Below, piece by piece: positions 15,723 through 64,000 of a DNA stretch of 64,000 bases (its first letter is position 1; each line of letters begins with the position of its first letter). A program made the translations under genes and the position numbers. The notes beneath the pieces were generated by a model, which saw only the letters and a list, made by a program, of their open reading frames with translations, did not search any database and had not been told where the DNA came from. Origin of the DNA: a phage; the sequence record PV806337.1. One strand, written 5' to 3'.

Positions 15723-16115
15723 TCATTCATCATTTAAGCCTGGAACATAAATCCCAACACGGTTTAATTGTTCTTTAGCTTCTTTGAGAATATCTGGAGT
15801 GTACTCCCAAATATCATCTTCCACCTGTAAAAGATGGGGCGAACAACCATCATCCGACACACGACATATGGCCAAACCACGTGGGTGGAACAAAGAGAAA
15901 TTTAGGGCAACAATTAAACCCATAGCAGACAACTCATTCCAATCCAACTCCCATTCCCCCGCGTAGCCGGATAGGAAAACACCAACACAGGGATCATCTA
16001 TTTGCTGCTCCGGAAAAGTGAAGGAGGCTTGTCTTACCCCCAACCAACGTTGTAGCAGCTTCTCCGCACGTTTCACCAAACTAGGATCAATCTGACGCCA
16101 ATATACTTGTTCCAT
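15723..16115 (-). CDS. hypothetical protein (130 aa), paralog of 16125-16553
   Basis: Shares blocks with neighbour (PCVGVFLSG, MGLIVALNFSLFHP, RVGIYVPGLN vs PCIGLIVQV, MGLVFALNYKLFMP, RFGYMIPGLT). Confidence 0.5.
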   Translation of the reverse strand: MEQVYWRQIDPSLVKRAEKLLQRWLGVRQASFTFPEQQIDDPCVGVFLSGYAGEWELDWNELSAMGLIVALNFSLFHPRGLAICRVSDDGCSPHLLQVEDDIWEYTPDILKEAKEQLNRVGIYVPGLNDE

Positions 16116-16124
16116 TCTGCCTCC

Positions 16125-16553
16125 TTAAGCAGTTAAACCTGGGATCATATACCCGAAACGTCGAAGTTTCTGAATCCCCTCATTTACTTCTTCCGGTGAG
16201 TAAGACCAACCATAACGTTCATTAACCTGAAAACCAGGAGATTCACTAGTTTTATAGTTAACAACAAGGCGATGCTTAGCAGGCATAAACAGCTTATAAT
16301 TTAACGCAAAAACTAAGCCCATTTCGTCTAACTCTTTCCAGCCCACAATCTCTTCAAGACCATCCTCTACCTGCACAATTAAACCAATACAGGGGGCCTC
16401 ATCAATATCATCTTTAAAAGCAAAGGAGATTTCGTTATTCTCACACCATATTTTCAAGGAGTTAATAGCCTCATTATACAGGCTAGCCGGTAGAGTACGC
16501 CAAAAGTTAACCAAAATTGGGTTAGCTTCTTTAGAGAATACATTATTGAACAT
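16125..16553 (-). CDS. hypothetical protein (142 aa), paralog of 15723-16115
   Basis: Same motif blocks as neighbour; tandem duplication. Confidence 0.5.
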   Translation of the reverse strand: MFNNVFSKEANPILVNFWRTLPASLYNEAINSLKIWCENNEISFAFKDDIDEAPCIGLIVQVEDGLEEIVGWKELDEMGLVFALNYKLFMPAKHRLVVNYKTSESPGFQVNERYGWSYSPEEVNEGIQKLRRFGYMIPGLTA

Positions 16554-16555
16554 AT

Positions 16556-17062
16556 TTACACCTTAAATTGTTGTAGGGCTTTACACATTTCAAGATCTGG
16601 ACTAAATTCTAGCATATAGCTAACAGCCATTAAATCTTGAAGATTTATTCCAGTTCTACCGTTGACTATAACCGTTGGATACTGGTACATCATAGCACCA
16701 GCGTCATCCAGAACACACCAATGTTTGAGCTTATGCTTTTCAACGAAGCGAAGAACAGAATTACCCCTAGATAATCCACCCCCAGTAAAATCCGTTGTAC
16801 CAAGAAAACGATCGATAAGACCTAATCCGGTCATAATCTGAACGTTCTCCATCTCATTCCTGACAGAGAACCATGAGGATACTCCAACAATCATTATCGG
16901 AGAAGGACGAATAAAGTCCTGAAAAGCCTTGAGAAGCGGTTTGAAAACCCAATCACTTCCAAAGAAAATCTTTTCGTCATCAGGTGCATGATGGTGGGAG
17001 ATGCTCGAATTGAGCACCCCATCAATATCTAGAAAAATAATTGGAGTATTACTTATTTCCAT
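16556..17062 (-). CDS. HAD-superfamily phosphatase-like protein (168 aa)
   Basis: HAD motif I IIFLDIDGVLNS and motif IV-like VLDDAG. Confidence 0.6.
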   Translation of the reverse strand: MEISNTPIIFLDIDGVLNSSISHHHAPDDEKIFFGSDWVFKPLLKAFQDFIRPSPIMIVGVSSWFSVRNEMENVQIMTGLGLIDRFLGTTDFTGGGLSRGNSVLRFVEKHKLKHWCVLDDAGAMMYQYPTVIVNGRTGINLQDLMAVSYMLEFSPDLEMCKALQQFKV

Positions 17063-17258
17063 TTTTGTTCCTTTCTAAGAACCTATCATACTCAACCGTA
17101 TCAACATATATAACACCATAGTCATCGGATTTATAGTCCATCTCCCACAGCTCACAGCGATAGCACCAACTACCATCCGCCCATACAAATATATCATCGG
17201 GGTGTGTATACACAGATTTAACTATGGACATACCTGTTTCCCTTGCTTCTCGACACAT
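17049..17258 (-). CDS. hypothetical protein (69 aa), Cys/Trp-rich
   Basis: Track ORF overlapping both neighbours. Confidence 0.4.
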   Translation of the reverse strand: MCREARETGMSIVKSVYTHPDDIFVWADGSWCYRCELWEMDYKSDDYGVIYVDTVEYDRFLERNKNGNK

Positions 17259-18054
17259 AAGGTCTACCCTCTAAATGAGCTTCTACACGAGCAATAAAAT
17301 CAGGATCACTAAAAGCATCTACCGCACCTTTACTCCAGTAAGGGACACCACGTTCTTCCAGCTGGTACATCTCACTACGAGTCATACCTTGATAGCCCGG
17401 TTCCGCCGCGAGGGCACTATCATAGTAGTTAACTACCATAAATTTCGCAGCAGTCCTATTAAGAACAGGAAATAATTCCCAGTAGAAGTTAATTACTTGG
17501 TTAGAGCAACCAACCACAATGATCATATCTTGACTGGTAATACCATCAAAAACATTATACATTTCTGCGTATGCAGGAGCATGCTCTCCAAAGAAGATTA
17601 CATTAGGTTTAACCCATTTATAATCATCTGGATCAATAGAATTGTATCCTACATCAATAATCCGTTTATTGCTACTATTGTAGCTATCAGCTACAACAAC
17701 CTCTTTTAAATATCCGTGAATATGCAGAATGTCACTATGTGGAACGCCAGCACGCTCAATAAGGTCATCAACGTTGGTAGTCAAGTTTACTACTTGACCT
17801 GGATATTGTTTATACCATTCACCAATACGCAAATGCGCAAGATTGGGTTCAACAGTTTTTAGCTCTTCACGACGCTTGTTGTAAAACATATGGGTTTTAT
17901 GATAAAAATTACCACGAAAGGCATGAATATTACATACTTCTTCTAGATCATAGTCATCCCACAATGCTTTACCACTAGCAGTATCAGTACGGAAGGCTCG
18001 TACACCACTTTCAACACTCAAACCCGCACCACTAATAATAATTAATCTACGCAT
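17218..18054 (-). CDS. Sir2-family (sirtuin-like) NAD-binding protein lacking the zinc ribbon
   Basis: Sirtuin motifs ISGAGLSVESGVRAFR, TTNVDDLIERAG, HIHGYL, KPNVIFFGE, IIVVGCS; no CxxC...CxxC zinc module. Confidence 0.65.
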   Translation of the reverse strand: MRRLIIISGAGLSVESGVRAFRTDTASGKALWDDYDLEEVCNIHAFRGNFYHKTHMFYNKRREELKTVEPNLAHLRIGEWYKQYPGQVVNLTTNVDDLIERAGVPHSDILHIHGYLKEVVVADSYNSSNKRIIDVGYNSIDPDDYKWVKPNVIFFGEHAPAYAEMYNVFDGITSQDMIIVVGCSNQVINFYWELFPVLNRTAAKFMVVNYYDSALAAEPGYQGMTRSEMYQLEERGVPYWSKGAVDAFSDPDFIARVEAHLEGRPYVSRSKGNRYVHS

Positions 18055-18915: not shown

Positions 18916-20763
18916 TTACTTAGCTCGAATATCCTGATGTTTCACCCTGCCCATAACCTCATGCTGTTTGCCTGGGTTAAATGGACGAGCACCTGGATTT
19001 CCAAGATACCCACAAACTCGACGAGTTACTTCAAGAGTTTCGGGGTCATGATTACCACAGATAGGGCACTTAAATCCATCTTCGGATGCTATTGTTTCAC
19101 CTAAGAATCCACATTTACCACAAGAATCCACTGGAGTATTAATACCGAAGTAATGAACTTTACTAGCAGCATAATTAATAACCCATTCTAGTGCATCTGG
19201 GAATCGTTTCATATCCGGTAGTTCTACATAGGAAATACACCCACCAGAAGCAATCGGAGTAAAGTTAGATTCATAATCAAATTTCACATTGGGAGCAACT
19301 TTACGTTCCACATCAAGGTGGTGAGAGTTAGTGTAGTATCCTTTGGACAGAATATCTTCATGCTCCGGGAAATATTCACGATCTAAACGGCAAAACCTAT
19401 CACACAGGGACTCTGACGGTGTAGCATACAGGCTATAACCTAACTTAGTTTCTTCCTTCTTCTGATCGACTCTATCTCGCATGTACTGCAATACACGCTG
19501 AACAAACTTGATGCTGGTCTCGGACATTGTGTCTACATCTTTGCCAAACATGAACTGTAGCATTTCATGACAACCAATATATCCTAGAGATACAGAAGCA
19601 CGGTTATAGAAATGATCGAATACGTATTCATCAGGCTCCAAGCGCAGTCCAAAGGCTCCTGACATATAGAGGATGGGTGCAGCTTTAGCTTGAATGTATT
19701 TTAAGCGATCAACTCTCCACTCCAACGCTTTTAATGCTGTATCCACACGTAGCTCAAGCAAATCAAAGAATAGATCAATATTTCCTTCAGCTTCGATAGC
19801 AATTCTAGGCAAGTTTACAGAAACAACACCTAAGTTATTACGACCTGCAGTTTCACCATCTTCTGTAGCAGCTAGGAATGAACGGCAGCCCATAGAAACT
19901 TTATAGTCACCAGTAACTTCCACAACCTTATCATAGCTGATATAATCTGGATACATACGTTCAGCAGTACATTTCATAGCTAACTTCTTGATGTCATAAT
20001 TAACATCCCCTGGTTTCATATTAACGCCATCACGGAGTACAAATACCAGTTTAGGGAAGATAGCTGTACGCTTATTGATACCTAAACCATCCATGCGTAC
20101 TTTCAGTATTGCTTTCTGTACTAGACGTGCTTCCCAAGAAGTTCCTAGACCAAAACCAAAGGTAATAAATGGACTCTGCCCATTAGAGTTGAACATGGTA
20201 TTGATTTCATATTCTAAACCCTGACAAGCGTCATAGACTTCTTTTTCAGTCATCTCCGTAGCCATTACGGATGCTTTGGCTTCATCCTTAGTCCAACGTT
20301 TTGCAAACGCATGATTTTTGTCATAAGATTTACGAACATAAGGGGCTAATACTTCATCAAGGCGATCTACAGAAGTACCACCATACTGATGGGAGCTAAC
20401 CTGAGTGATAATCTGAGCAGTAATAGCCGCCGCAGTAGTGATAGAGTTTGGAGTGCTAATTTCAGCATTACCAACCTTCATACCATTCTTCAACATATCT
20501 TCCAGAGCTACCAGGCAACAGTTAGTCATACCTAATGCAGCATAATCAGCATCATGGAAATGAATATCCCCAATCATATGAGCATTTCGAATCTGAATTG
20601 GCATTTCTTCTAAAATCAGATACTTACTCAATTCACCTGCAAGCATATCCCTTTGTGTAGGGAAACGTTCACTCGGTTTGTTCGCGTTATTAAAAAGTAA
20701 CTCTTCATTGGCAGATCCCTCAATAATTTCCTTACAATTTCTAATCAATTCATCTTTGTTCAT
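18916..20763 (-). CDS. nrdD: anaerobic ribonucleoside-triphosphate reductase (class III RNR)
   Basis: C-terminal zinc site CGKCGF...CPICGNHD and glycyl-radical motif RVCGYLG; 615 aa. Confidence 0.9.
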   Translation of the reverse strand: MNKDELIRNCKEIIEGSANEELLFNNANKPSERFPTQRDMLAGELSKYLILEEMPIQIRNAHMIGDIHFHDADYAALGMTNCCLVALEDMLKNGMKVGNAEISTPNSITTAAAITAQIITQVSSHQYGGTSVDRLDEVLAPYVRKSYDKNHAFAKRWTKDEAKASVMATEMTEKEVYDACQGLEYEINTMFNSNGQSPFITFGFGLGTSWEARLVQKAILKVRMDGLGINKRTAIFPKLVFVLRDGVNMKPGDVNYDIKKLAMKCTAERMYPDYISYDKVVEVTGDYKVSMGCRSFLAATEDGETAGRNNLGVVSVNLPRIAIEAEGNIDLFFDLLELRVDTALKALEWRVDRLKYIQAKAAPILYMSGAFGLRLEPDEYVFDHFYNRASVSLGYIGCHEMLQFMFGKDVDTMSETSIKFVQRVLQYMRDRVDQKKEETKLGYSLYATPSESLCDRFCRLDREYFPEHEDILSKGYYTNSHHLDVERKVAPNVKFDYESNFTPIASGGCISYVELPDMKRFPDALEWVINYAASKVHYFGINTPVDSCGKCGFLGETIASEDGFKCPICGNHDPETLEVTRRVCGYLGNPGARPFNPGKQHEVMGRVKHQDIRAK

Positions 20764-21421
20764 TAATTATTTCCTCAATAAACCTTGCTACTACTTCTGG
20801 CTCAATACTAAAAAATTCTGTAGCACCATCAAAATCTTTATATTGACAATTATATTCCTTAAACTGTAAATGGGTTTCTCTCTCAATATGCATAGCTTTT
20901 GATCTATCTGAAAAGCTATACTCCTTAAATATTTTTAAATCATGTATGTTAGAGGAAGTTTTAATATCTCTGAGTCTATCTTTAGTTCTGCTAGACACAC
21001 CTATTTTGGTTCCCACATTACTTACTAAAATATATACGTTAGTAGGATAATTATCCTTCTCTAATAAACATATAGGACAACCAGAATTATGATTTCTAAC
21101 ACTATCAAGTGTAGACTCCCATTTATGATCATTCTCACAGCTGAACATGATTTTACTCTTGGAATTGATATATTTACCTTCCATCTTTATTCCACGGGCA
21201 GCTAAAGATTCATTTACTTCTTTAAGATCTAAAGTACGGCTAGCACAATAAGGGCAACCTCTACCACCTTTTACGTTATCTACTCTAGCCTCCCAACTAT
21301 GCCCATTAGAGCACTTAAATATAGCCTTGGATTTAGCTGATACATACGTGCTTAGCATAACTATTCCTCTAGGAGCAAGTGCTAAGTTCACATCTTCTGT
21401 AGTTATTTTCTTTCTTACCAT
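20750..21421 (-). CDS. zinc-ribbon x2 plus T5orf172/GIY-YIG-like domain protein (homing-endonuclease-like)
   Basis: Two repeats C..GH.W......CP.C; C-terminal NVYILVSN...KIGVSSR...EFF resembling T5orf172 domain; overlaps nrdD start. Confidence 0.6.
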   Translation of the reverse strand: MVRKKITTEDVNLALAPRGIVMLSTYVSAKSKAIFKCSNGHSWEARVDNVKGGRGCPYCASRTLDLKEVNESLAARGIKMEGKYINSKSKIMFSCENDHKWESTLDSVRNHNSGCPICLLEKDNYPTNVYILVSNVGTKIGVSSRTKDRLRDIKTSSNIHDLKIFKEYSFSDRSKAMHIERETHLQFKEYNCQYKDFDGATEFFSIEPEVVARFIEEIINEQR

Positions 21422-21442
21422 TAAATTCTCCTTAATTCACAT

Positions 21443-21471
21443 ATTATACATAATTCCACCCCATACGTCAA
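21443..21471 (-). promoter_or_regulatory. sigma70-like promoter for 21421 gene and nrdD
   Basis: -35 TTGACG, 17 bp, -10 TATAAT on minus strand; RBS AAGGAG. Confidence 0.6.
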
Positions 21472-21643
21472 CTACATTTTTCTAATACTATTTGACTTTT
21501 GATTTTTATCAATTTTTATTGATGCTATACAGCATAATATCTTTACATATAAATAAATGATTATCTAGTATCATATTTCTACCTTTATAAGCAAGTAAAT
21601 TTTTTATTTAAAAGCAATATCATAGGTTTATTTAAAATTATAC

Positions 21644-27907: not shown

Positions 27908-28462
27908 ATGATCGTACAAGAGGGGTGGACAAAAGAATCCGCACGTAATAGGTTTATCTATAATCCTCTTACTGGGGAGATTTTAAATAGAATTAACAGT
28001 GGTAGGGCTAAGAAAGGACAGATAGCCGGGTACCTAGACAAGTCTACTGGATATATTCGGGTAACATTGGCAGGAAAAAGAATGAAAGGACATCAGTTAG
28101 CCTTCTTATACATGGAAGGATATATACCTGATACTATAGATCACATCAACAGAATAAAATCTGATAATAGATGGTGTAATTTAAGGGAATCTTCACCCCA
28201 AGAGAATGCTAGAAATATTAAAGCAAGAAGTAAATCTGGTTATTTAGGGGTTGGGTGGCATAAGCCAAGTCAAAAATGGTGGGTATATACTAAAGATGTA
28301 AAAGGAGCGCAGATTAATGGTGGTTACTTTGATTATACGAAATTAGAGGAAGCAGTCAATAAAGCTAATGAACTCCGTCAGCAATTACATGGACATACTG
28401 CTATTTTAGAAGTTTTTAATCCTGATCAACCAATACCTACCATAGAGGAACTTAATAAATGA
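27908..28462 (+). CDS. HNH homing endonuclease with AP2-like DNA-binding region
   Basis: HNH motif HQLAFLYMEG...IDHINRIKSDNRWCNLRE; AP2-like GYLGVGWHKPSQKWWVY. Confidence 0.75.
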   Translation: MIVQEGWTKESARNRFIYNPLTGEILNRINSGRAKKGQIAGYLDKSTGYIRVTLAGKRMKGHQLAFLYMEGYIPDTIDHINRIKSDNRWCNLRESSPQENARNIKARSKSGYLGVGWHKPSQKWWVYTKDVKGAQINGGYFDYTKLEEAVNKANELRQQLHGHTAILEVFNPDQPIPTIEELNK

Positions 28463-34270: not shown

Positions 34271-34342
34271 TGCCGTCCTAGTATAATTGGTATTATCAAG
34301 CCGTAACTGGTGGAAGATGTAGGTTCGAATCCTACGGTCGGT
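34271..34342 (+). ncRNA. degenerate tRNA-like fragment (T-arm and acceptor only)
   Basis: T-arm GTAGG-TTCGAAT-CCTAC and 6/7-bp acceptor GCCGTCC/GGTCGGT, no convincing anticodon arm, no CCA. Confidence 0.3.
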
Positions 34343-34845
34343 AAGAACTGGATAACTGATGCTTTTAACATAAAAGCTTCCGAGGTTAGTTGCGCACTGC
34401 CTAAACCACGCGGTAGTTGGTTCCAGACTAACCAACCAGTCTGCTGAATAGTTTTATTACGATTTAACTATGTCCAGGCTAAAGAAGAACTTTAGAAGGT
34501 ATTCTAGGATAGTGAAGTTCTTTCTCCATATCGGAGTAGTTTTTCAAGCTATCCACAAAGTGGGAAATGCTGACATGAGAGATGTCACTAATGGTGCACA
34601 ATAGCACAGGTAATTCGCGATAACTCCTGTTGAGTAGCAGCAAAAGGTGGGAAGTCATGACCCCAAGCCTAACCGAGTCCTCAATATACCGCAGGACATA
34701 ACCACTAAGTCACCCTGACTTAAACTGGAAAATAATAGACGTTACTGTATTTTGTCTTGAAATACTTAATGAGTGAGACTTATGACTCTCCCGGTATCGT
34801 CTGTATTTTTAAGAGTTTTTACGAGAGTTCTTAAAAATACTTAAA

Positions 34846-38550: not shown

Positions 38551-38628
38551 GGTTCTCAAGCTCATATGGTATGAGCACCCGGCTCATAACCGGAAGGTAC
38601 GTAGGTTCGAATCCTCGGGGAGCCACCA
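38551..38628 (+). tRNA. tRNA with CAT anticodon (Met/fMet/Ile2), non-canonical T-stem
   Basis: Acceptor GGTTCTC/GGGAGCC with G-U pairs; anticodon loop CTCATAA; T-loop TTCGAAT with bulged stem; CCA. Confidence 0.55.
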
Positions 38629-40352: not shown

Positions 40353-40427
40353 GCACCTTTAGCTGAGATGGATTAGCGCTTGCCTGAAGAGCTTGAGAGG
40401 TTGGATCGTTACCAACGGGGTGCTCCA
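40353..40427 (+). tRNA. tRNA-like, possibly Phe (anticodon GAA), non-canonical T-loop
   Basis: Acceptor GCACCTT/GGGGTGC, D-arm GCTG...TAGC, anticodon loop CTGAAGA with mismatched stem, T-arm GTTGG-ATCGTTA-CCAAC, CCA. Confidence 0.45.
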
Positions 40428-40883: not shown

Positions 40884-41402
40884 GTGCATACAAAAGTTTT
40901 TGATAGTTTGGTAAAGAAAGGCGTTGTTACTAACGAGCCCTTCTATATAACCGCAGAACTAATCCAGAGATTTATGGAAGAATATATAAATCTTTCAGGA
41001 ACCAATGGTAATACCAAAAAGAATACAAATACTATGTATTCGAGAAAACTTGCTGCACTTTCCTTTATAAAGTTTAAGCAGGAAAATAAACTTCCTATTT
41101 CTGAAGGTTTTGTATACTGTATTAGTAATCCTGCATGGAAAAATCAGTATAAAATAGGTATGAGTCAAAATCCAAAAGAGAGATTAGCTCAATATCAGAC
41201 TTATTCCCCTTATAGGGATTATAAGTTAGAGCATTGGTCTTTTTGGTTTGACAAACGAAAAGGTGAAAAACTAATTCACCAGTATTTCAAAGATTTAAAA
41301 GAACATGAGTGGTTTAGTATAAATTCTAGGGATCTTAGTAAATATCTAGAACGTATTAACTCTAGTTCTGACTTATATGGTTCCTTAGCTCTAATTGGTT
41401 AG
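40884..41402 (+). CDS. T5orf172/GIY-YIG-like domain protein
   Basis: GFVYCISNPAWKNQYKIGMSQNPKERL...EWF; GTG start with RBS AAGGAAAG; last 24 nt overlap a tRNA 5' end. Confidence 0.6.
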   Translation: MHTKVFDSLVKKGVVTNEPFYITAELIQRFMEEYINLSGTNGNTKKNTNTMYSRKLAALSFIKFKQENKLPISEGFVYCISNPAWKNQYKIGMSQNPKERLAQYQTYSPYRDYKLEHWSFWFDKRKGEKLIHQYFKDLKEHEWFSINSRDLSKYLERINSSSDLYGSLALIG

Positions 41403-46763: not shown

Positions 46764-46958
46764 ATGTTAACAGTTAAAGTAATGGCCACTAATGGTGGTG
46801 AAGAAATTCATGACGGTACTAGTGTAGGATTTAATCCCAAAAATAAAAGTATTCATATTTCAGGATTAGATCAACCAATTTTCTTAAAAGAGAATGAAGT
46901 TGCCTATGTTATGAACCAAAATGGTAAAACTGTTTCCGTATACTATGGAAAAGTATAA
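46764..46958 (+). CDS. hypothetical protein (64 aa)
   Basis: Track ORF with RBS AGGAG; terminator follows. Confidence 0.55.
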   Translation: MLTVKVMATNGGEEIHDGTSVGFNPKNKSIHISGLDQPIFLKENEVAYVMNQNGKTVSVYYGKV

Positions 46959-46968
46959 AGAATAAAAT

Positions 46969-46995
46969 ATCAGGCCTTTGTGCCTGATTTCTATG
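46969..46995 (+). terminator. rho-independent terminator
   Basis: ATCAGGC-CTTTGT-GCCTGAT followed by TTCTATGTTTATT. Confidence 0.6.
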
Positions 46996-47143
46996 TTTAT
47001 TAAGCTGAATGGGACTATCAATCCACAAGCCGGACTACGAGCGATTATCGGGTATTCACTTAATAAACAGCCTGCCTTCCAGTTTTTATCTTGCTTCTGG
47101 GTTAACAAAAAGCTGAGCCAAATTCTAACATCGGGGAGATCTA

Positions 47144-47512
47144 ATGAAAGCATATCAAAATCTTAAATCTGGCGTAATTAACCTTGTTCATGAAAATCAG
47201 ATTATTCAGCTGTACTCCGACAATGGTGAACTTAAACAGAAAGTTCTAGTTGAAGATCTAGAAGGTATCACACCACAATTCGATTCCGAAGCCTTCCGTG
47301 AAGTCAAAGTGGAAGTCGCTCCTCAAATCGAAGGTGGTCAGCACCTAAATGTCAATGTGTTAAGCCGTGATCAGCTTTTGGATGCGCAGAAACATCCTGA
47401 AAAATATCCTCAGTTGACCATCCGTGTCTCTGGCTACGCTGTTCGATTTAATGCACTGACTCGCGAACAACAGAACGACGTTATTAGTCGTACGTTTACT
47501 CAGGCGATGTAA
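47144..47512 (+). CDS. grcA: autonomous glycyl-radical cofactor (GrcA/YfiD-like)
   Basis: C-terminal half [57 protein letters not shown] closely resembles E. coli GrcA incl. RVSGY glycyl radical motif. Confidence 0.8.
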
Positions 47513-47593
47513 TGGGGTTTGGATACGATTTCTCCCAGCTACGCAAGGTAGTCGAGCAAACTCCATTTATCTCCCAAGTTTTAGGAGAAATGT

Positions 47594-47908
47594 GTGGATC
47601 GAGCATTAAGACGCCATCACCGGCAACGTATGAAGAACAACCGCAAGAAGTACTGGACAGTCTTTCCACATGAAGAAAGCCCTAAGCGGTTAGGTATCAT
47701 CACTACTACTCCTTGCATCTGTTCTTGTTGGATGTGTGGGAACCCTCGCAAATATTATAAGAATAGTAAAGCAGGACTGAAAATTTCGGAGATTAGGAAA
47801 ATGGAAGCAATGATTATGGGCATTTCAAATGATGAATTTGATGGCTTTGTAGGATTCGGAGAAGGAATCAGCTCAGGCTGTTTCGAAGATGAATGCCACG
47901 ATCTGTAA
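47594..47908 (+). CDS. hypothetical protein with basic N-terminus and CxCxCxxC cluster (104 aa)
   Basis: GTG start with RBS AGGAG; TPCICSCWMCGNP; not a CX3CX2C radical-SAM motif. Confidence 0.5.
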   Translation: MDRALRRHHRQRMKNNRKKYWTVFPHEESPKRLGIITTTPCICSCWMCGNPRKYYKNSKAGLKISEIRKMEAMIMGISNDEFDGFVGFGEGISSGCFEDECHDL

Positions 47909-61273: not shown

Positions 61274-61875
61274 TGACTTTTAATGCGCAACAATCTATTC
61301 AAGTAGTGCCAGATCATGAACTGAACACATGGGATTATAGCTTTAAAGATTTAACCGCTACTGTACAATTTAAATCTATGAAGCTAACATTTGCACACAC
61401 TGACCTTAGAGCATGTAAAGGTCTTGAGGATAAGCTCGAAGATGCTCGCAAGATTTTTGGTAAGGCTCGCATCCCAGCTGATAATCTAATTAACGCATTA
61501 ATCGATGCAGGGTACAAACTTGTGAAGACTGAGGTGAACCGCCCTAGTACTCCAGTGACTATTAGAGATCCGTGGCAGTCAGGGACAATCGCAATGCTGA
61601 ATAAATCATCGGATTTGCACAATGTTCCTTGTGGGGGTGTGATAAGTAGTACGCAGTCATATAAGTTTGGGGAAGATTACGGCCCTTCTGTACAGTTGAA
61701 ACATACTCAAGAAGCTTTTGAATCTGATATGCGAAGCGTAGCACCTGCGGATGCTGAAGGTTTTAGAAGTCCCATCTATGTTACTCACTTTAATAATCTT
61801 AGGCCTGGGAGTATAAATGATGCTATCCTTGAAGCGTTGGGAGCTGCTATTAATGAAGATAAGAGGGGTAATTAA
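61273..61875 (+). CDS. hypothetical protein (200 aa)
   Basis: Track ORF. Confidence 0.55.
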   Translation: MTFNAQQSIQVVPDHELNTWDYSFKDLTATVQFKSMKLTFAHTDLRACKGLEDKLEDARKIFGKARIPADNLINALIDAGYKLVKTEVNRPSTPVTIRDPWQSGTIAMLNKSSDLHNVPCGGVISSTQSYKFGEDYGPSVQLKHTQEAFESDMRSVAPADAEGFRSPIYVTHFNNLRPGSINDAILEALGAAINEDKRGN

Positions 61876-62600
61876 TGAGTATAAAAAAGAATTTAGCAGA
61901 GATTATTAAGTTAGCTAGAGCTTGTAATGGAAAATGTGTTTCTCAGCTTAATGAACTAGAAGCACATGCAGTAGCATTTTGTGCAGAGTTTTATCCTGCA
62001 TACCTTAATGCTAGTGGGCAACCTAAATATAATAAGGATGCCGAAGAAGTTACGTTAGCTCCTTCATATATTAGCTTGCGTCGTTTAATTCAAACCGTTG
62101 ATCCTACTATTAAAGGATTCTCAGCAGATTCATTCCACGTCTTTGCAGATAAAGAACTCCCGTATTTTAAAGAAGGAAATGCAAAGTCATGTTTAGAATG
62201 TTATCCTAATATACTGATGATTCCTCAAAAGCAATGTAAATACGATCATCTTCCTAGACTTACAAAGAAAGTAGCACCACCTTATTCTTCTCTATCTGAA
62301 TTAAAGCTAGGAATTGTATCTACACTTGCGCAGATTCATCTAAGTATAGTTGACGACTCAACAACATCTAACCCTATTCTAGATGCTGCTCACTTTGAAA
62401 TTTTACGTGATCCTGAACAAGCTAGAAAAGTTGCTAAGTCTGTTAAGTTTGATATATCAACAATTCTTGACACTAAACAAGAAACTAGACCTAGAGGAAG
62501 TGTAGATTATTCTGCGCTAAATTCCGAGTCATCTTACTTAGCAACATTCCTTTTCATGGCGTCAAAAGGGGTTATTCTAAAGGTTAATAAAGATGGATGA
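61875..62600 (+). CDS. hypothetical protein (241 aa)
   Basis: Track ORF. Confidence 0.55.
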   Translation: MSIKKNLAEIIKLARACNGKCVSQLNELEAHAVAFCAEFYPAYLNASGQPKYNKDAEEVTLAPSYISLRRLIQTVDPTIKGFSADSFHVFADKELPYFKEGNAKSCLECYPNILMIPQKQCKYDHLPRLTKKVAPPYSSLSELKLGIVSTLAQIHLSIVDDSTTSNPILDAAHFEILRDPEQARKVAKSVKFDISTILDTKQETRPRGSVDYSALNSESSYLATFLFMASKGVILKVNKDG

Positions 62601-63321
62601 TTTACGTGCTGAAATTAATAAAAAGTTACGAGAGGAAGCCCGGAGGTTTCCTCTTAAAAACTTTTTGAAGTCAAATGGCTCTACTAATATAACGAAGATT
62701 AGGCAACTTCACCCTGACTTCCAACAAGAGGCCTTAAACCTTATCTTTATTAGGAAAGCTTTAAAAGTCCAGAAAGAAGAGTATGGGTATGAAAGAGTTA
62801 ATTATAAGACAGCCAATCAGTTAGTAGAGATATGGTGCTATAAACATAAAGGATACTTTATGCAAACTGCTAGATCTCACCTAGATGGGCACGGTTGTTT
62901 ACAATGTGCTAGGGAAAGCAACCTAAATACACCTATCGAGAAACCGGAGGTAGAAGAAGATGTTCAGTCCCCCACATATCTCTATATCTTCTCTAATAAA
63001 GATCAGTCTAGGAAGAAATTAAAGACAAAGATTGGGGTTTCTAGAGAGCCACATCAAAGGTTTAAGAATCTAGAGTATGATAAATTGCGTGTGCCGGGTT
63101 TTGAAGATATGGAAGTATTTGGTATCTACCAGTATAAGAAAGGATCGAAAGAACTCGCTTACAAAATAGAACACCAAGCACATAAATTTTTCGAGAATAA
63201 ATTTGCTAACCATTATAAATTCGATGGAGCAAAAGAGATATTCAACATTAAAGCTGTAGAGGCAGAAGAATATCTATTAAGTCAAGGTTGCATAAAAATT
63301 TACCCAACTCCAAACTCATGA
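62593..63321 (+). CDS. zinc-ribbon plus T5orf172/GIY-YIG-like domain protein
   Basis: N-terminal CYKHKGYF...GHGCLQCAR; C-terminal YLYIFSNKDQ...KIGVSREPHQR...GAKEIF, same family as 20750-21421 and 40884-41402. Confidence 0.6.
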   Translation: MDDLRAEINKKLREEARRFPLKNFLKSNGSTNITKIRQLHPDFQQEALNLIFIRKALKVQKEEYGYERVNYKTANQLVEIWCYKHKGYFMQTARSHLDGHGCLQCARESNLNTPIEKPEVEEDVQSPTYLYIFSNKDQSRKKLKTKIGVSREPHQRFKNLEYDKLRVPGFEDMEVFGIYQYKKGSKELAYKIEHQAHKFFENKFANHYKFDGAKEIFNIKAVEAEEYLLSQGCIKIYPTPNS

Positions 63322-63348
63322 CAAAAATTTAAAAGTAACGAAATCTGC

Positions 63349-63378
63349 TTGACATTCGTGAGAATAATGTGTTATAAT
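63349..63378 (+). promoter_or_regulatory. sigma70 consensus promoter facing the repeat region
   Basis: -35 TTGACA, 18 bp, -10 TATAAT; no ORF downstream within window. Confidence 0.6.
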
Positions 63379-63699
63379 AATCTCATAGATTAAAAACATC
63401 AACTTGTTTTTACCTCTAGGCCGTAGATTTACATCATTCCTCGTAGGAAAACACTTGATGACGGTTCTGCTCGCAGGTTCTCGTCAATTGTTCTTCCACA
63501 CCGAGACTTAGGAGGATGTATCAAATCGCACGCGCCTAGAGGGGCTAACTCTCATGAAATGGGGGTATATTTACTTTTAAATAACTAAAAAATATTTAAA
63601 GGCAATATCTGTGTTCAAGATGATACACCTGTTGCCGCTCTCCATCTCTAGGATCACATACACTTTCCTAGAAACTCCAGAGTTCTCACTAAATACTCA

Positions 63700-63950
63700 C
63701 GAAATATCACACTTCTAGTGGGCGGTTCTCCTAAGTTTCTAGGAACATATACTAGGCGGTTAATATAGGGCGGTTAATATAGGGCGGTTATTTCTAGGAG
63801 ACATTTTTCCAAAACACATTTCCAGAAATTACTATCGGATTTGCACATTGTGTTTCTAGAAATTTATGGTCGGATTTGCACAAACGCCTAAGTTTTTAGG
63901 AACTCTTACTCCCCTGAAAATGGCAGCATTATTTCGGGCCGAAGGCCCAT
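63700..63950. repeat. iteron-like direct repeats and repeated motifs in non-coding region
   Basis: Three tandem copies of about 14 bp (TAGGCGGTTAATA, TAGGGCGGTTAATA, TAGGGCGGTTATTT); GGGCGGTT 4 times; CTAAGTTTCTAGGAAC twice; TCGGATTTGCACA twice; hairpin GGGCCGAAGGCCC. Confidence 0.6.
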
Positions 63951-64000
63951 AATTGCCTGAGTTTTTAGAGCCACAGAAATTTTCACTTGTCAAGCTATTT

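What the first reader, a model, noticed from the sequence alone, without database searches (positions are those of the whole stretch)
47144..47512. Phage-encoded GrcA (YfiD)-like autonomous glycyl-radical cofactor
The C-terminal about 60 residues, including the RVSGY glycyl-radical motif, are very similar to E. coli GrcA, the spare-part protein that restores oxygen-cleaved pyruvate formate-lyase. The phage also encodes the glycyl-radical enzyme NrdD, but I see no activase (NrdG or PflA-like, CX3CX2C radical SAM) in this window, so both would depend on host activases. This suggests the phage invests in anaerobic or oxygen-stress metabolism of its host.
Basis: partly seen in the sequence, partly recalled or inferred. 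Interest (0 to 1): 0.6.

Follow-up and report, generated by a model that had tools for sequence, protein, structure and literature searches.

The report
T5-like phage GrcA spare-part protein
This is a real, well-conserved phage copy of the small bacterial "spare part" protein GrcA, which repairs oxygen-damaged pyruvate formate-lyase; it is already annotated in hundreds of T5-like and T4-like phages, and its T4 homologue has been tested biochemically, so it is an ordinary, known feature.

Summary
Window 47144..47512 (+) encodes a 122-aa protein. Its last 62 residues are a PFL-type glycyl-radical domain: Pfam Gly_radical E=3.5e-18, E. coli GrcA/YfiD structure 6owr E=1e-30, PflB C-terminus E=5e-27. 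The RVSGYAV motif has the radical glycine at Gly97.

The window is a T5-like phage (Tequintavirus). The gene is the orthologue of T5.056 and is 52% identical over its full length to T4 Vs.6/Y06I. Wagner et al. 2001 showed that Y06I is radicalised by PFL activase and restores oxygen-cleaved PFL. tblastn homologues occur in 1583 phage records, many already labelled "autonomous glycyl radical cofactor GrcA". dN/dS is 0.04-0.16, so the gene is functional.

NrdD is at 18916..20763 (-). No NrdG/PflA-type activase is found in the window or in two complete relatives (T5, WP85), and record counts indicate T5-like phages as a group have NrdD without NrdG.

The most likely mechanism is that host PflA installs a radical on Gly97 and the protein then rescues host PFL. 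I infer that this also secures formate, the reductant of the phage's class III ribonucleotide reductase.

Verdict: interpretation supported, already known, low interest.

The parts
47144..47512 (+). grcA-like gene (orthologue of T5.056 and T4 vs.6/Y06I), 122 aa plus stop
   Evidence: dN/dS 0.04-0.16 against T5, BF23, WP85, SA001 and faergetype
47324..47509 (+). C-terminal glycyl-radical domain, residues 61-122; 77% identical to E. coli GrcA and 79% to PflB residues 699-760
   Evidence: 37 invariant columns across 30 phage and bacterial GrcAs; Foldseek top hits are 6owr and then PFL
47423..47443 (+). RVSGYAV motif (residues 94-100); the Gly97 codon GGC at 47432-47434 is the predicted radical site, equivalent to GrcA G102 and PflB G734
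   Evidence: direct reading of the sequence; invariant in alignment A1
47144..47323 (+). N-terminal half, residues 1-60. It is weakly GrcA-like (31% identity to E. coli GrcA, 35% to T4 Vs.6), has a T5-clade-specific segment, and is under purifying selection (dN/dS 0.10-0.18)
   Evidence: AF2 predicts beta strands at moderate confidence
47133..47138 (+). Shine-Dalgarno-like GGGGAG, 5 nt before the ATG. The roughly 40 nt before the start codon are conserved across T5-like phages
46969..46988 (+). terminator-like hairpin lying within the 143-nt intergenic insertion upstream of the gene (present here and in WP85, absent from T5_ev212 and two Logan contigs)
47594..47908 (+). downstream gene in the same transcription unit (T5.055 / BF23 ORF trn 2.22 homologue), 104 aa, basic N-terminus, CxCxCxxC cysteine cluster; function unknown, not a radical-SAM activase
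18916..20763 (-). phage NrdD (class III anaerobic ribonucleotide reductase), 54% identical to E. coli NrdD, with the glycyl loop RRVCGYLG conserved and no ATP-cone

Best explanation

Proposed mechanism:
1. The gene is expressed early from the T5-type tRNA operon.
2. The 14-kDa protein binds host pyruvate formate-lyase whose own C-terminal radical domain has been cleaved at Gly734 by oxygen.
3. Host PflA (PFL activase, a radical-SAM enzyme) abstracts a hydrogen from Gly97 in the RVSGYAV loop.
4. The radical is passed to Cys419 of PflB, which restores pyruvate -> acetyl-CoA + formate.

T5-type phages shut off host gene expression and degrade host DNA, so the infected cell cannot make new PflB or GrcA. 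The phage therefore supplies the spare part itself.

Likely pay-off (inferred): continued fermentative ATP production, and a continued supply of formate. Formate is the reductant used by E. coli- and T4-type class III ribonucleotide reductases, and the phage encodes one (NrdD).

The phage carries no activase, so GrcA would depend on host PflA and NrdD on host NrdG.

What is shown and what is inferred: shown here are the homology, the domain architecture, the conservation and selection, and the absence of an activase. The biochemical activity has been shown elsewhere, but only for the T4 homologue. The activity of this protein, its timing and the formate link are inferred.
For: Homology: Pfam Gly_radical E=3.5e-18. 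The best NCBIfam match is TIGR04365 GrcA, 121 bits. PDB 6owr YfiD E=1e-30 and PflB E=5e-27. The Foldseek top hit for the AF2 model is the YfiD NMR structure, followed by PFL.

Conservation: RVSGYAV and 37 C-terminal positions are invariant across 30 phage and bacterial GrcAs.

Relation to the T4 protein: the match to phrog_1209 is full length, and identity to T4-like Vs.6 is 52% over the full length. T4 vs.6 is itself annotated GrcA. PMC8683613, citing Wagner et al. 2001 BBRC 285:456 (reference also seen), describes Y06I as radicalised by PFL-AE and restoring O2-cleaved PFL.

Selection: dN/dS is 0.04-0.16 overall and 0-0.06 in the C-terminal domain.

Operon context: in T5 the order is promoter P11 ... 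tRNA-Met, T5.056, T5.055, terminator.

No activase: tblastn with T4 NrdG, E. coli NrdG and E. coli PflA finds nothing below E=0.9 in the window, in complete WP85 or in complete T5, while the T4 control scores 7e-111, 5e-45 and 3e-10. NrdD-positive minus NrdG-positive records come to 273 for Salmonella and 130 for Escherichia. That matches the 273 and 132 T5-like records.

Formate link: formate is the reductant of E. coli, L. lactis and T4 NrdD (PMC4493059). The window's NrdD is 54% identical to E. coli NrdD. In Aeromonas phages Ah1 and Aeh1 the vs.6 homologue sits in an nrdD-nrdG-vs.6-nrdC-nrdH cluster and overlaps the end of nrdG.
Against: There is no experiment on any T5-like protein. The N-terminal half, which in YfiD matters for binding cleaved PFL and for activation (PMC8683613), is only about 31% identical to E. 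coli GrcA. It carries a clade-specific segment, and as a result the protein misses the TIGR04365 trusted cutoff (121 vs 170 bits). The AF2 model is only moderate (mean pLDDT 67). The formate-for-NrdD rationale rests on co-occurrence in the few lineages I sampled and on one gene cluster in Aeromonas phages. In T5 and T4 the two genes are 17-27 kb apart. I found no paper that states this link.
Confidence: 0.8

Rival explanations
1. Decoy or brake rather than repair part. The protein keeps the RVSGYAV loop so that it soaks up host PflA activity or occupies PflB. This would down-regulate host fermentation or redirect pyruvate.
For: Sequence alone cannot separate a productive substrate of PflA from a competitive one, because both need the conserved motif. 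The N-terminal half diverges from bacterial GrcA.
Against: The T4 homologue restores PFL activity in vitro (Wagner 2001, as described in PMC8683613). The whole C-terminal domain that packs into the PFL barrel is essentially frozen (dN/dS 0-0.06), not just the PflA-binding loop. It is 79% identical to PflB. That is what a working replacement part would need.
Confidence: 0.07
2. Spare part for another glycyl-radical enzyme: either the phage's own NrdD after oxygen cleavage, or host TdcE (2-ketobutyrate formate-lyase).
For: The phage encodes NrdD. In Aeromonas phages the homologue is translationally coupled to nrdG. Several database records label the gene 2-ketobutyrate formate-lyase. PMC8683613 speculates that spare parts may exist for other glycyl-radical enzymes.
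Against: There is no detectable similarity between this protein and the NrdD C-terminal radical domain (BLASTP E=5.6). The NrdD loop is RRVCGYLG, not RVSGYAV. The best matches are all PFL or GrcA. TdcE was not compared here.
Confidence: 0.05
3. Non-functional remnant: a recently captured fragment of host pflB or grcA that drifts along in the variable tRNA region.
For: The gene lies in a mosaic, indel-rich tRNA region with many mobile endonucleases.
Against: The 369-nt ORF is intact in every T5-like orthologue I retrieved (7 sequences). Homologues occur in 1583 phage records, 1419 of them covering at least 80% of the protein. Against T5, dS is 0.57 and dN is 0.03. The gene has its own conserved ribosome-binding site.
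Confidence: 0.01

Closest known systems
Bacteriophage T4 Vs.6 (Y06I_BPT4, NP_049730)
   Same: Same size (120 vs 122 aa). Same MKAYQ N-terminus and same two-part architecture. Identity is 52% overall and 77% in the radical domain. Both match the same PHROG (phrog_1209) over their full length. Both are phage-borne and sit in early-gene regions.
   Different: T4's C-terminal domain is 95% identical to E. coli GrcA, whereas the T5-type domain is equidistant from GrcA (77%) and PflB (79%). T4 also encodes its own NrdG; T5-like phages do not. The T5-type N-terminal half has an extra segment. Only the T4 protein has been tested biochemically.
E. coli GrcA / YfiD (P68066, PDB 6owr; NCBIfam TIGR04365)
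   Same: A standalone protein of about 14 kDa. The C-terminal 62 aa are 77% identical, including [10 protein letters not shown]. It is the top sequence and fold hit. The linker has a similar REV..VE..P motif before [11 protein letters not shown].
   Different: The N-terminal 60 residues are only about 31% identical. The total score is below the family's trusted cutoff (121 vs 170 bits). The gene is encoded by a virus and is expressed from a phage early operon, not from the host's own regulated promoter.
E. coli pyruvate formate-lyase PflB, C-terminal residues 699-760
   Same: 79% identity, including the terminal TFTQ.M, which resembles PflB more than GrcA.
   Different: It lacks the roughly 700-residue ten-stranded barrel and the Cys418/Cys419 active site, so it cannot be a formate acetyltransferase. 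Annotations such as 'pyruvate formate-lyase' or 'acetyltransferase-related' in many phage records are misleading.
T5.056 of phage T5 (YP_006884) and ORF trn 2.21 of BF23
   Same: Direct orthologues, about 93-96% identical in protein sequence, in the same position after tRNA-Met and before T5.055.
   Different: In this window a 64-aa ORF and a 143-nt insertion with a hairpin separate tRNA-Met from the gene. In T5 the gene follows the tRNA by 13 nt.

Membership tests
Autonomous glycyl radical cofactor GrcA/YfiD (TIGR04365 / IPR011140) | Small standalone protein (about 120-130 aa), not a fragment of a full-length glycyl-radical enzyme | tested here: met
   122-aa ORF with its own ribosome-binding site and stop codon. 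The 7 T5-like orthologues retrieved are all 122 aa, and T4 Vs.6 is 120 aa.
Autonomous glycyl radical cofactor GrcA/YfiD (TIGR04365 / IPR011140) | C-terminal PFL-type glycyl-radical domain with the RVSGYAV loop | tested here: met
   PF01228 66.5 bits (cutoff 22.2). RVSGYAV at residues 94-100. 77-79% identity to GrcA and PflB.
Autonomous glycyl radical cofactor GrcA/YfiD (TIGR04365 / IPR011140) | Whole-protein score above the curated equivalog cutoff, i.e. a GrcA-type N-terminal half | tested here: not met
   121.4 bits against a cutoff of 170, with the match covering only residues 50-122. The multiple alignment still shows weak N-terminal homology: Q5 is nearly invariant, and identity is 31-35%. 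It is therefore a divergent phage subfamily (phrog_1209) rather than a strict equivalog.
Autonomous glycyl radical cofactor GrcA/YfiD (TIGR04365 / IPR011140) | Fold of the radical domain (helix, beta-hairpin with Gly at the tip, helix) | tested here: met
   The AF2 model has H75-83, E92-95/E98-101 and H107-117. The Foldseek top hit is 6owr (E=7e-6), followed by 2pfl. The model is of moderate quality (pLDDT 67).
Autonomous glycyl radical cofactor GrcA/YfiD (TIGR04365 / IPR011140) | Radical installation by PflA and rescue of O2-cleaved PFL | not testable with these tools
   Shown only for E. coli YfiD and T4 Y06I (Wagner 2001, as described in PMC8683613).
Pyruvate formate-lyase / formate C-acetyltransferase (TIGR01255) | Full catalytic barrel of about 750 aa with the Cys418-Cys419 pair | tested here: not met
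   Only profile positions 683-744 of 744 are matched. The score is 85.9 bits against a cutoff of 994.
Glycyl-radical activase (radical SAM; NrdG/PflA) anywhere in the phage | Protein of 150 aa or more with a CX3CX2C cluster and homology to NrdG or PflA | tested here: not met
   tblastn finds nothing below E=0.9 in the window, WP85 or T5, and the positive control works. The only in-gene CX3CX2C (CICSCWMC, ORF 47594-47908, 104 aa) has no Pfam hit and matches phrog_4499, function unknown.

The most novel reading that the evidence does not exclude
The T5-clade N-terminal half is distinct from both bacterial GrcA and T4 Vs.6. It is predicted to be beta-structured and is under purifying selection. 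It could give the protein a property the host's GrcA lacks. One possibility is binding and radical-loading intact or differently damaged PflB, or another host glycyl-radical enzyme. That would make the phage protein an active re-wiring device, coupling PFL-derived formate to the phage's activase-less NrdD, rather than a simple spare part.
Probability: 0.1. Interest if true: 0.45.

Novelty: already known. Interest (0 to 1): 0.15.

Why it matters
It matters little beyond correct annotation. Many phage records call this gene "pyruvate formate-lyase", "acetyltransferase-related", "2-ketobutyrate formate-lyase" or even "ribonucleotide reductase subunit". It should be called a GrcA-type autonomous glycyl-radical cofactor.

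One observation is modestly useful. T5-like phages as a group carry two glycyl-radical proteins (NrdD and GrcA) but no activase, so both depend on host NrdG and PflA that were made before host shut-off. GrcA may also protect the formate supply that a class III ribonucleotide reductase needs. That is a testable idea about how gut phages replicate at low or fluctuating oxygen, but it extends known biology and is not a new kind of system.

Tried and rejected
1. Hidden activase. I scanned all six frames of the window, WP85 and T5 for CX3CX2C. I also ran tblastn with T4 NrdG, E. coli NrdG and E. coli PflA. Only noise came back, and the T4 control was positive.

2. The one CX3CX2C-containing ORF next to the gene (47594-47908). 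It has no Pfam hit, matches a PHROG of unknown function, and is only 104 aa, so I rejected it as an activase.

3. Spare part for NrdD. BLASTP of the two proteins gives E=5.6, so I rejected this.

4. Structured RNA or riboswitch in the 185-nt leader. The fold z-score is 0.27, and Rfam finds only tRNAs in the window, so I rejected this.

5. Own promoter. There is only a weak 9/12 sigma-70-like match at 47102-47131, and the region has no more promoter-like sites than shuffled sequence, so this is not claimed.

6. Literature on the T5 gene. Searches for 'T5.056', Tequintavirus plus glycyl radical, T5-like plus pyruvate formate-lyase, and nrdD/nrdG plus bacteriophage T5 all returned nothing.

7. 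Genome-level co-occurrence of GrcA and NrdD across all phage records. This could not be done rigorously because the tools list at most 60 records per search. Only genus-level counts and sampled lineages were compared.

Full report
**Observation**

A GGGGAG ribosome-binding site lies 5 nt upstream. The motif RVSGYAV occupies residues 94-100, and the Gly97 codon (GGC) is at 47432-47434.

The similarity is far beyond chance:
- Pfam Gly_radical: 66.5 bits against a gathering score of 22.2, E=3.5e-18.
- Best NCBIfam family: TIGR04365 "autonomous glycyl radical cofactor GrcA", 121 bits.
- Best solved structures: E. coli GrcA/YfiD (6owr, E=1e-30) and the PflB C-terminus (E=5e-27).
- Identity over the last 62 residues: 77% to E. 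coli GrcA, 79% to PflB and 77% to T4 Vs.6.

**What the window is**

The surrounding DNA is 94-96% identical to T5-like phages of about 110 kb (Salmonella phage WP85, Escherichia phages slur09 and AKFV33, and others). The window carries the characteristic T5 tRNA cluster, with 21 tRNAs.

In phage T5 itself the orthologue is T5.056. It was annotated in 2004-5 as "putative acetyltransferase-related protein" from its match to the glycine-radical InterPro domain. In T5 it sits in an early transcription unit: promoter P11, T5.058, tRNA-Ile, T5.057, tRNA-Met, T5.056, T5.055, rho-independent terminator.

An identical protein is encoded on other contigs of 108-110 kb in public assemblies.

**How widespread and how well known**

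tblastn finds the protein in 1583 phage records. About 440 are T5-like, at 86% identity or more. About 1000 are T4-like, at roughly 52% identity over the full length. Aeromonas phages are also represented in that search. The protein-database search adds Vibrio phages and jumbo phages of about 350 kb. Many of these records already name the gene "autonomous glycyl radical cofactor GrcA".

The T4 gene is vs.6 (Y06I_BPT4), annotated GrcA in RefSeq. PMC8683613, citing Wagner et al. 2001 (BBRC 285:456; reference also seen), describes Y06I, like YfiD, as receiving a glycyl radical from PFL activase and forming an active complex with oxygen-cleaved PFL. According to that paper, YfiD and Y06I are the only two validated spare-part proteins. 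The kind of element is therefore known and experimentally grounded. The T5-type member is annotated but untested.

**Anatomy**

An alignment of 30 phage and bacterial GrcAs shows 37 invariant positions, all in residues 63-119.

The N-terminal half is only 31-35% identical among the T5-type protein, T4 Vs.6 and E. coli GrcA. Even so, it aligns along its whole length: the MKAYQ/ITGIQ start with a nearly invariant Gln5, and an REV..VE..P linker before [11 protein letters not shown]. The T5 clade has an extra segment. This divergence explains why the protein misses the TIGR04365 trusted cutoff (121 vs 170 bits, with the match limited to residues 50-122). It still matches the phage family phrog_1209 end to end (E=6e-48).

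An AlphaFold2 model is of moderate quality (mean pLDDT 67). It reproduces the helix, beta-hairpin and helix of the radical domain, with Gly97 at the tip of the hairpin. Its best Foldseek hits are the YfiD NMR structure and then PFL.

The gene is under strong purifying selection against five T5-like orthologues. dN/dS is 0.04-0.16 overall, 0-0.06 in the C-terminal domain and 0.10-0.18 in the N-terminal half, with dS up to 0.57. Both halves therefore matter to the phage.

**The activase question**

NrdD is confirmed at 18916..20763 (-) (Pfam NRDD E=1e-172). It is 54% identical to E. coli NrdD and has a nearly identical glycyl loop (VTRRVCGYLG.P.ARPFN.GKQ). It lacks the N-terminal ATP-cone region.

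No radical-SAM activase is present. Six-frame CX3CX2C scans find only a CICSCWMC cluster in the 104-aa T5.055 homologue (47594..47908), plus frames that do not look coding. That ORF has no Pfam match and belongs to a PHROG of unknown function.

tblastn with T4 NrdG, E. coli NrdG and E. coli PflA finds nothing below E=0.9 in the window, in the complete WP85 genome or in the complete T5 genome. The same search recovers T4 nrdG at 7e-111, 5e-45 and 3e-10. Neither complete genome has an annotated activase.

Record counts give the same answer for the whole group. NrdD homologues occur in 2924 phage records and NrdG homologues in 2273. The excess is 273 for Salmonella phages and 130 for Escherichia phages. 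That closely matches the 273 and 132 T5-like records that carry this locus. T5-like phages therefore carry NrdD and GrcA but rely on host NrdG and PflA.

**Mechanism**

The best-supported reading (confidence about 0.8) is that the protein works as YfiD and Y06I do.
1. It docks on host PflB that has lost its radical domain through oxygen cleavage at Gly734.
2. Host PflA radicalises it on Gly97.
3. The radical passes to Cys419, and PFL catalysis resumes.

T5's A1 protein degrades host DNA and shuts off host gene expression (annotation). A phage-encoded copy is therefore the only way to add spare parts after infection. This rationale is my inference.

A second inferred benefit links the two glycyl-radical genes. 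Formate, the product of PFL, is the reductant of E. coli-, L. lactis- and T4-type class III ribonucleotide reductases (PMC4493059). Keeping PFL alive would thus keep the phage's NrdD supplied.

Evidence for this link:
- GrcA-like genes and NrdD co-occur in the T5-like, T4-like and Aeromonas T4-like genomes I inspected.
- GrcA-like genes also occur in jumbo enterobacterial phages, and one jumbo Erwinia phage carries NrdD, but I did not check both genes in the same jumbo genome.
- In Aeromonas phages Ah1 and Aeh1 the vs.6 homologue lies inside an nrdD-nrdG-vs.6-nrdC-nrdH cluster and overlaps the end of nrdG.

I found no paper that states this link, and I could not do a rigorous genome-wide co-occurrence test.

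**Rivals**

- A PflA/PFL decoy cannot be excluded from sequence alone. It is disfavoured by the T4 biochemistry and by the near-frozen conservation of the entire barrel-inserting domain (about 0.07).
- A spare part for NrdD is disfavoured because the two radical domains share no detectable similarity (E=5.6). A role with host TdcE was not tested. Together these rate about 0.05.
- A decaying captured fragment is excluded by the dN/dS values and by conservation across homologues in 1583 phage records (about 0.01).

**Verdict**

The feature is already known: T5.056 and T4 Vs.6/Y06I, widely annotated as GrcA.

This analysis adds four things:
- A cleaner annotation. It is not a formate-lyase, an acetyltransferase or an RNR subunit.
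- A family-wide statement that T5-like phages lack both activases.
- Evidence that the divergent N-terminal half is under selection.
- A testable formate-supply hypothesis.

Interest is low (0.15).

Noticed in passing
window 46961-47103 (within the 46959-47143 intergenic region): A 143-nt insertion lies between the 64-aa ORF (46764..46958) and grcA. It is present here and in WP85 but absent from T5_ev212 and two Logan contigs that encode the identical protein. It carries a terminator-like hairpin at 46969-46988. Its folding energy is no better than shuffled sequence (z=0.27).
   Followed up: partly
window 47512-47908: Two overlapping ORFs follow grcA, and different records annotate different ones. 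The 53-aa ORF (47512..47673) is annotated in WP85 and T5_ev212. The 104-aa ORF (47594..47908) is T5.055 / BF23 trn 2.22. Substitutions among five phages are mostly synonymous in the 104-aa frame, and the 53-aa frame loses its stop codon in phage faergetype, so the 104-aa gene is probably the real one. It has a very basic N-terminus and a CxCxCxxC cluster. Its function is unknown.
   Followed up: partly
window 20750-21421 (-): A 223-aa ORF with T5orf172, DUF4379 zinc-finger and CapR domains (a likely homing-endonuclease-type mobile gene) abuts the start of nrdD. This segment (about 20746-21554) is absent from both T5 and WP85.
   Followed up: partly
window 27908-28462, 40884-41402, 62593-63321: Further mobile-endonuclease-like ORFs (HNH_3, T5orf172/MUG113, T5orf172) lie in segments that are missing from WP85 and/or T5. 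The last 2.1 kb of the window (61871-64000) matches neither relative.
   Followed up: partly
window 18916-20763 (-): The phage NrdD aligns to E. coli NrdD only from E. coli residue 110 onward. It therefore lacks the N-terminal ATP-cone regulatory region, while the zinc-ribbon cysteines and the glycyl loop are kept.
   Followed up: partly
phage collection as a whole: NrdD-positive minus NrdG-positive record counts (Salmonella 273, Escherichia 130) closely match the number of T5-like records (273, 132). This implies the whole T5-like group carries an activase-less class III RNR.
   Followed up: partly
L018 3522-4384 (Aeromonas phage Ah1) and L019 3435-4288 (Aeh1): The GrcA/Vs.6 homologue overlaps the stop codon of nrdG by 4 nt, inside an nrdD-nrdG-vs.6-nrdC-nrdH cluster. 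This suggests co-expression of the PFL spare part with the anaerobic RNR module.
   Followed up: partly
window 34272-34343, 38551-38625, 40353-40424: Rfam's tRNA model scores three extra weak matches (31-40 bits) that ARAGORN did not call. T5 is annotated with several tRNA-like stable RNAs of unknown function in its tRNA region.
   Followed up: no
window 15723-18054 (-): Downstream of nrdD lie a Sir2-family protein (17218..18054), a HAD_SAK_2 domain protein (16556..17062) and two tandem DUF7415 proteins (15723..16553).
   Followed up: no
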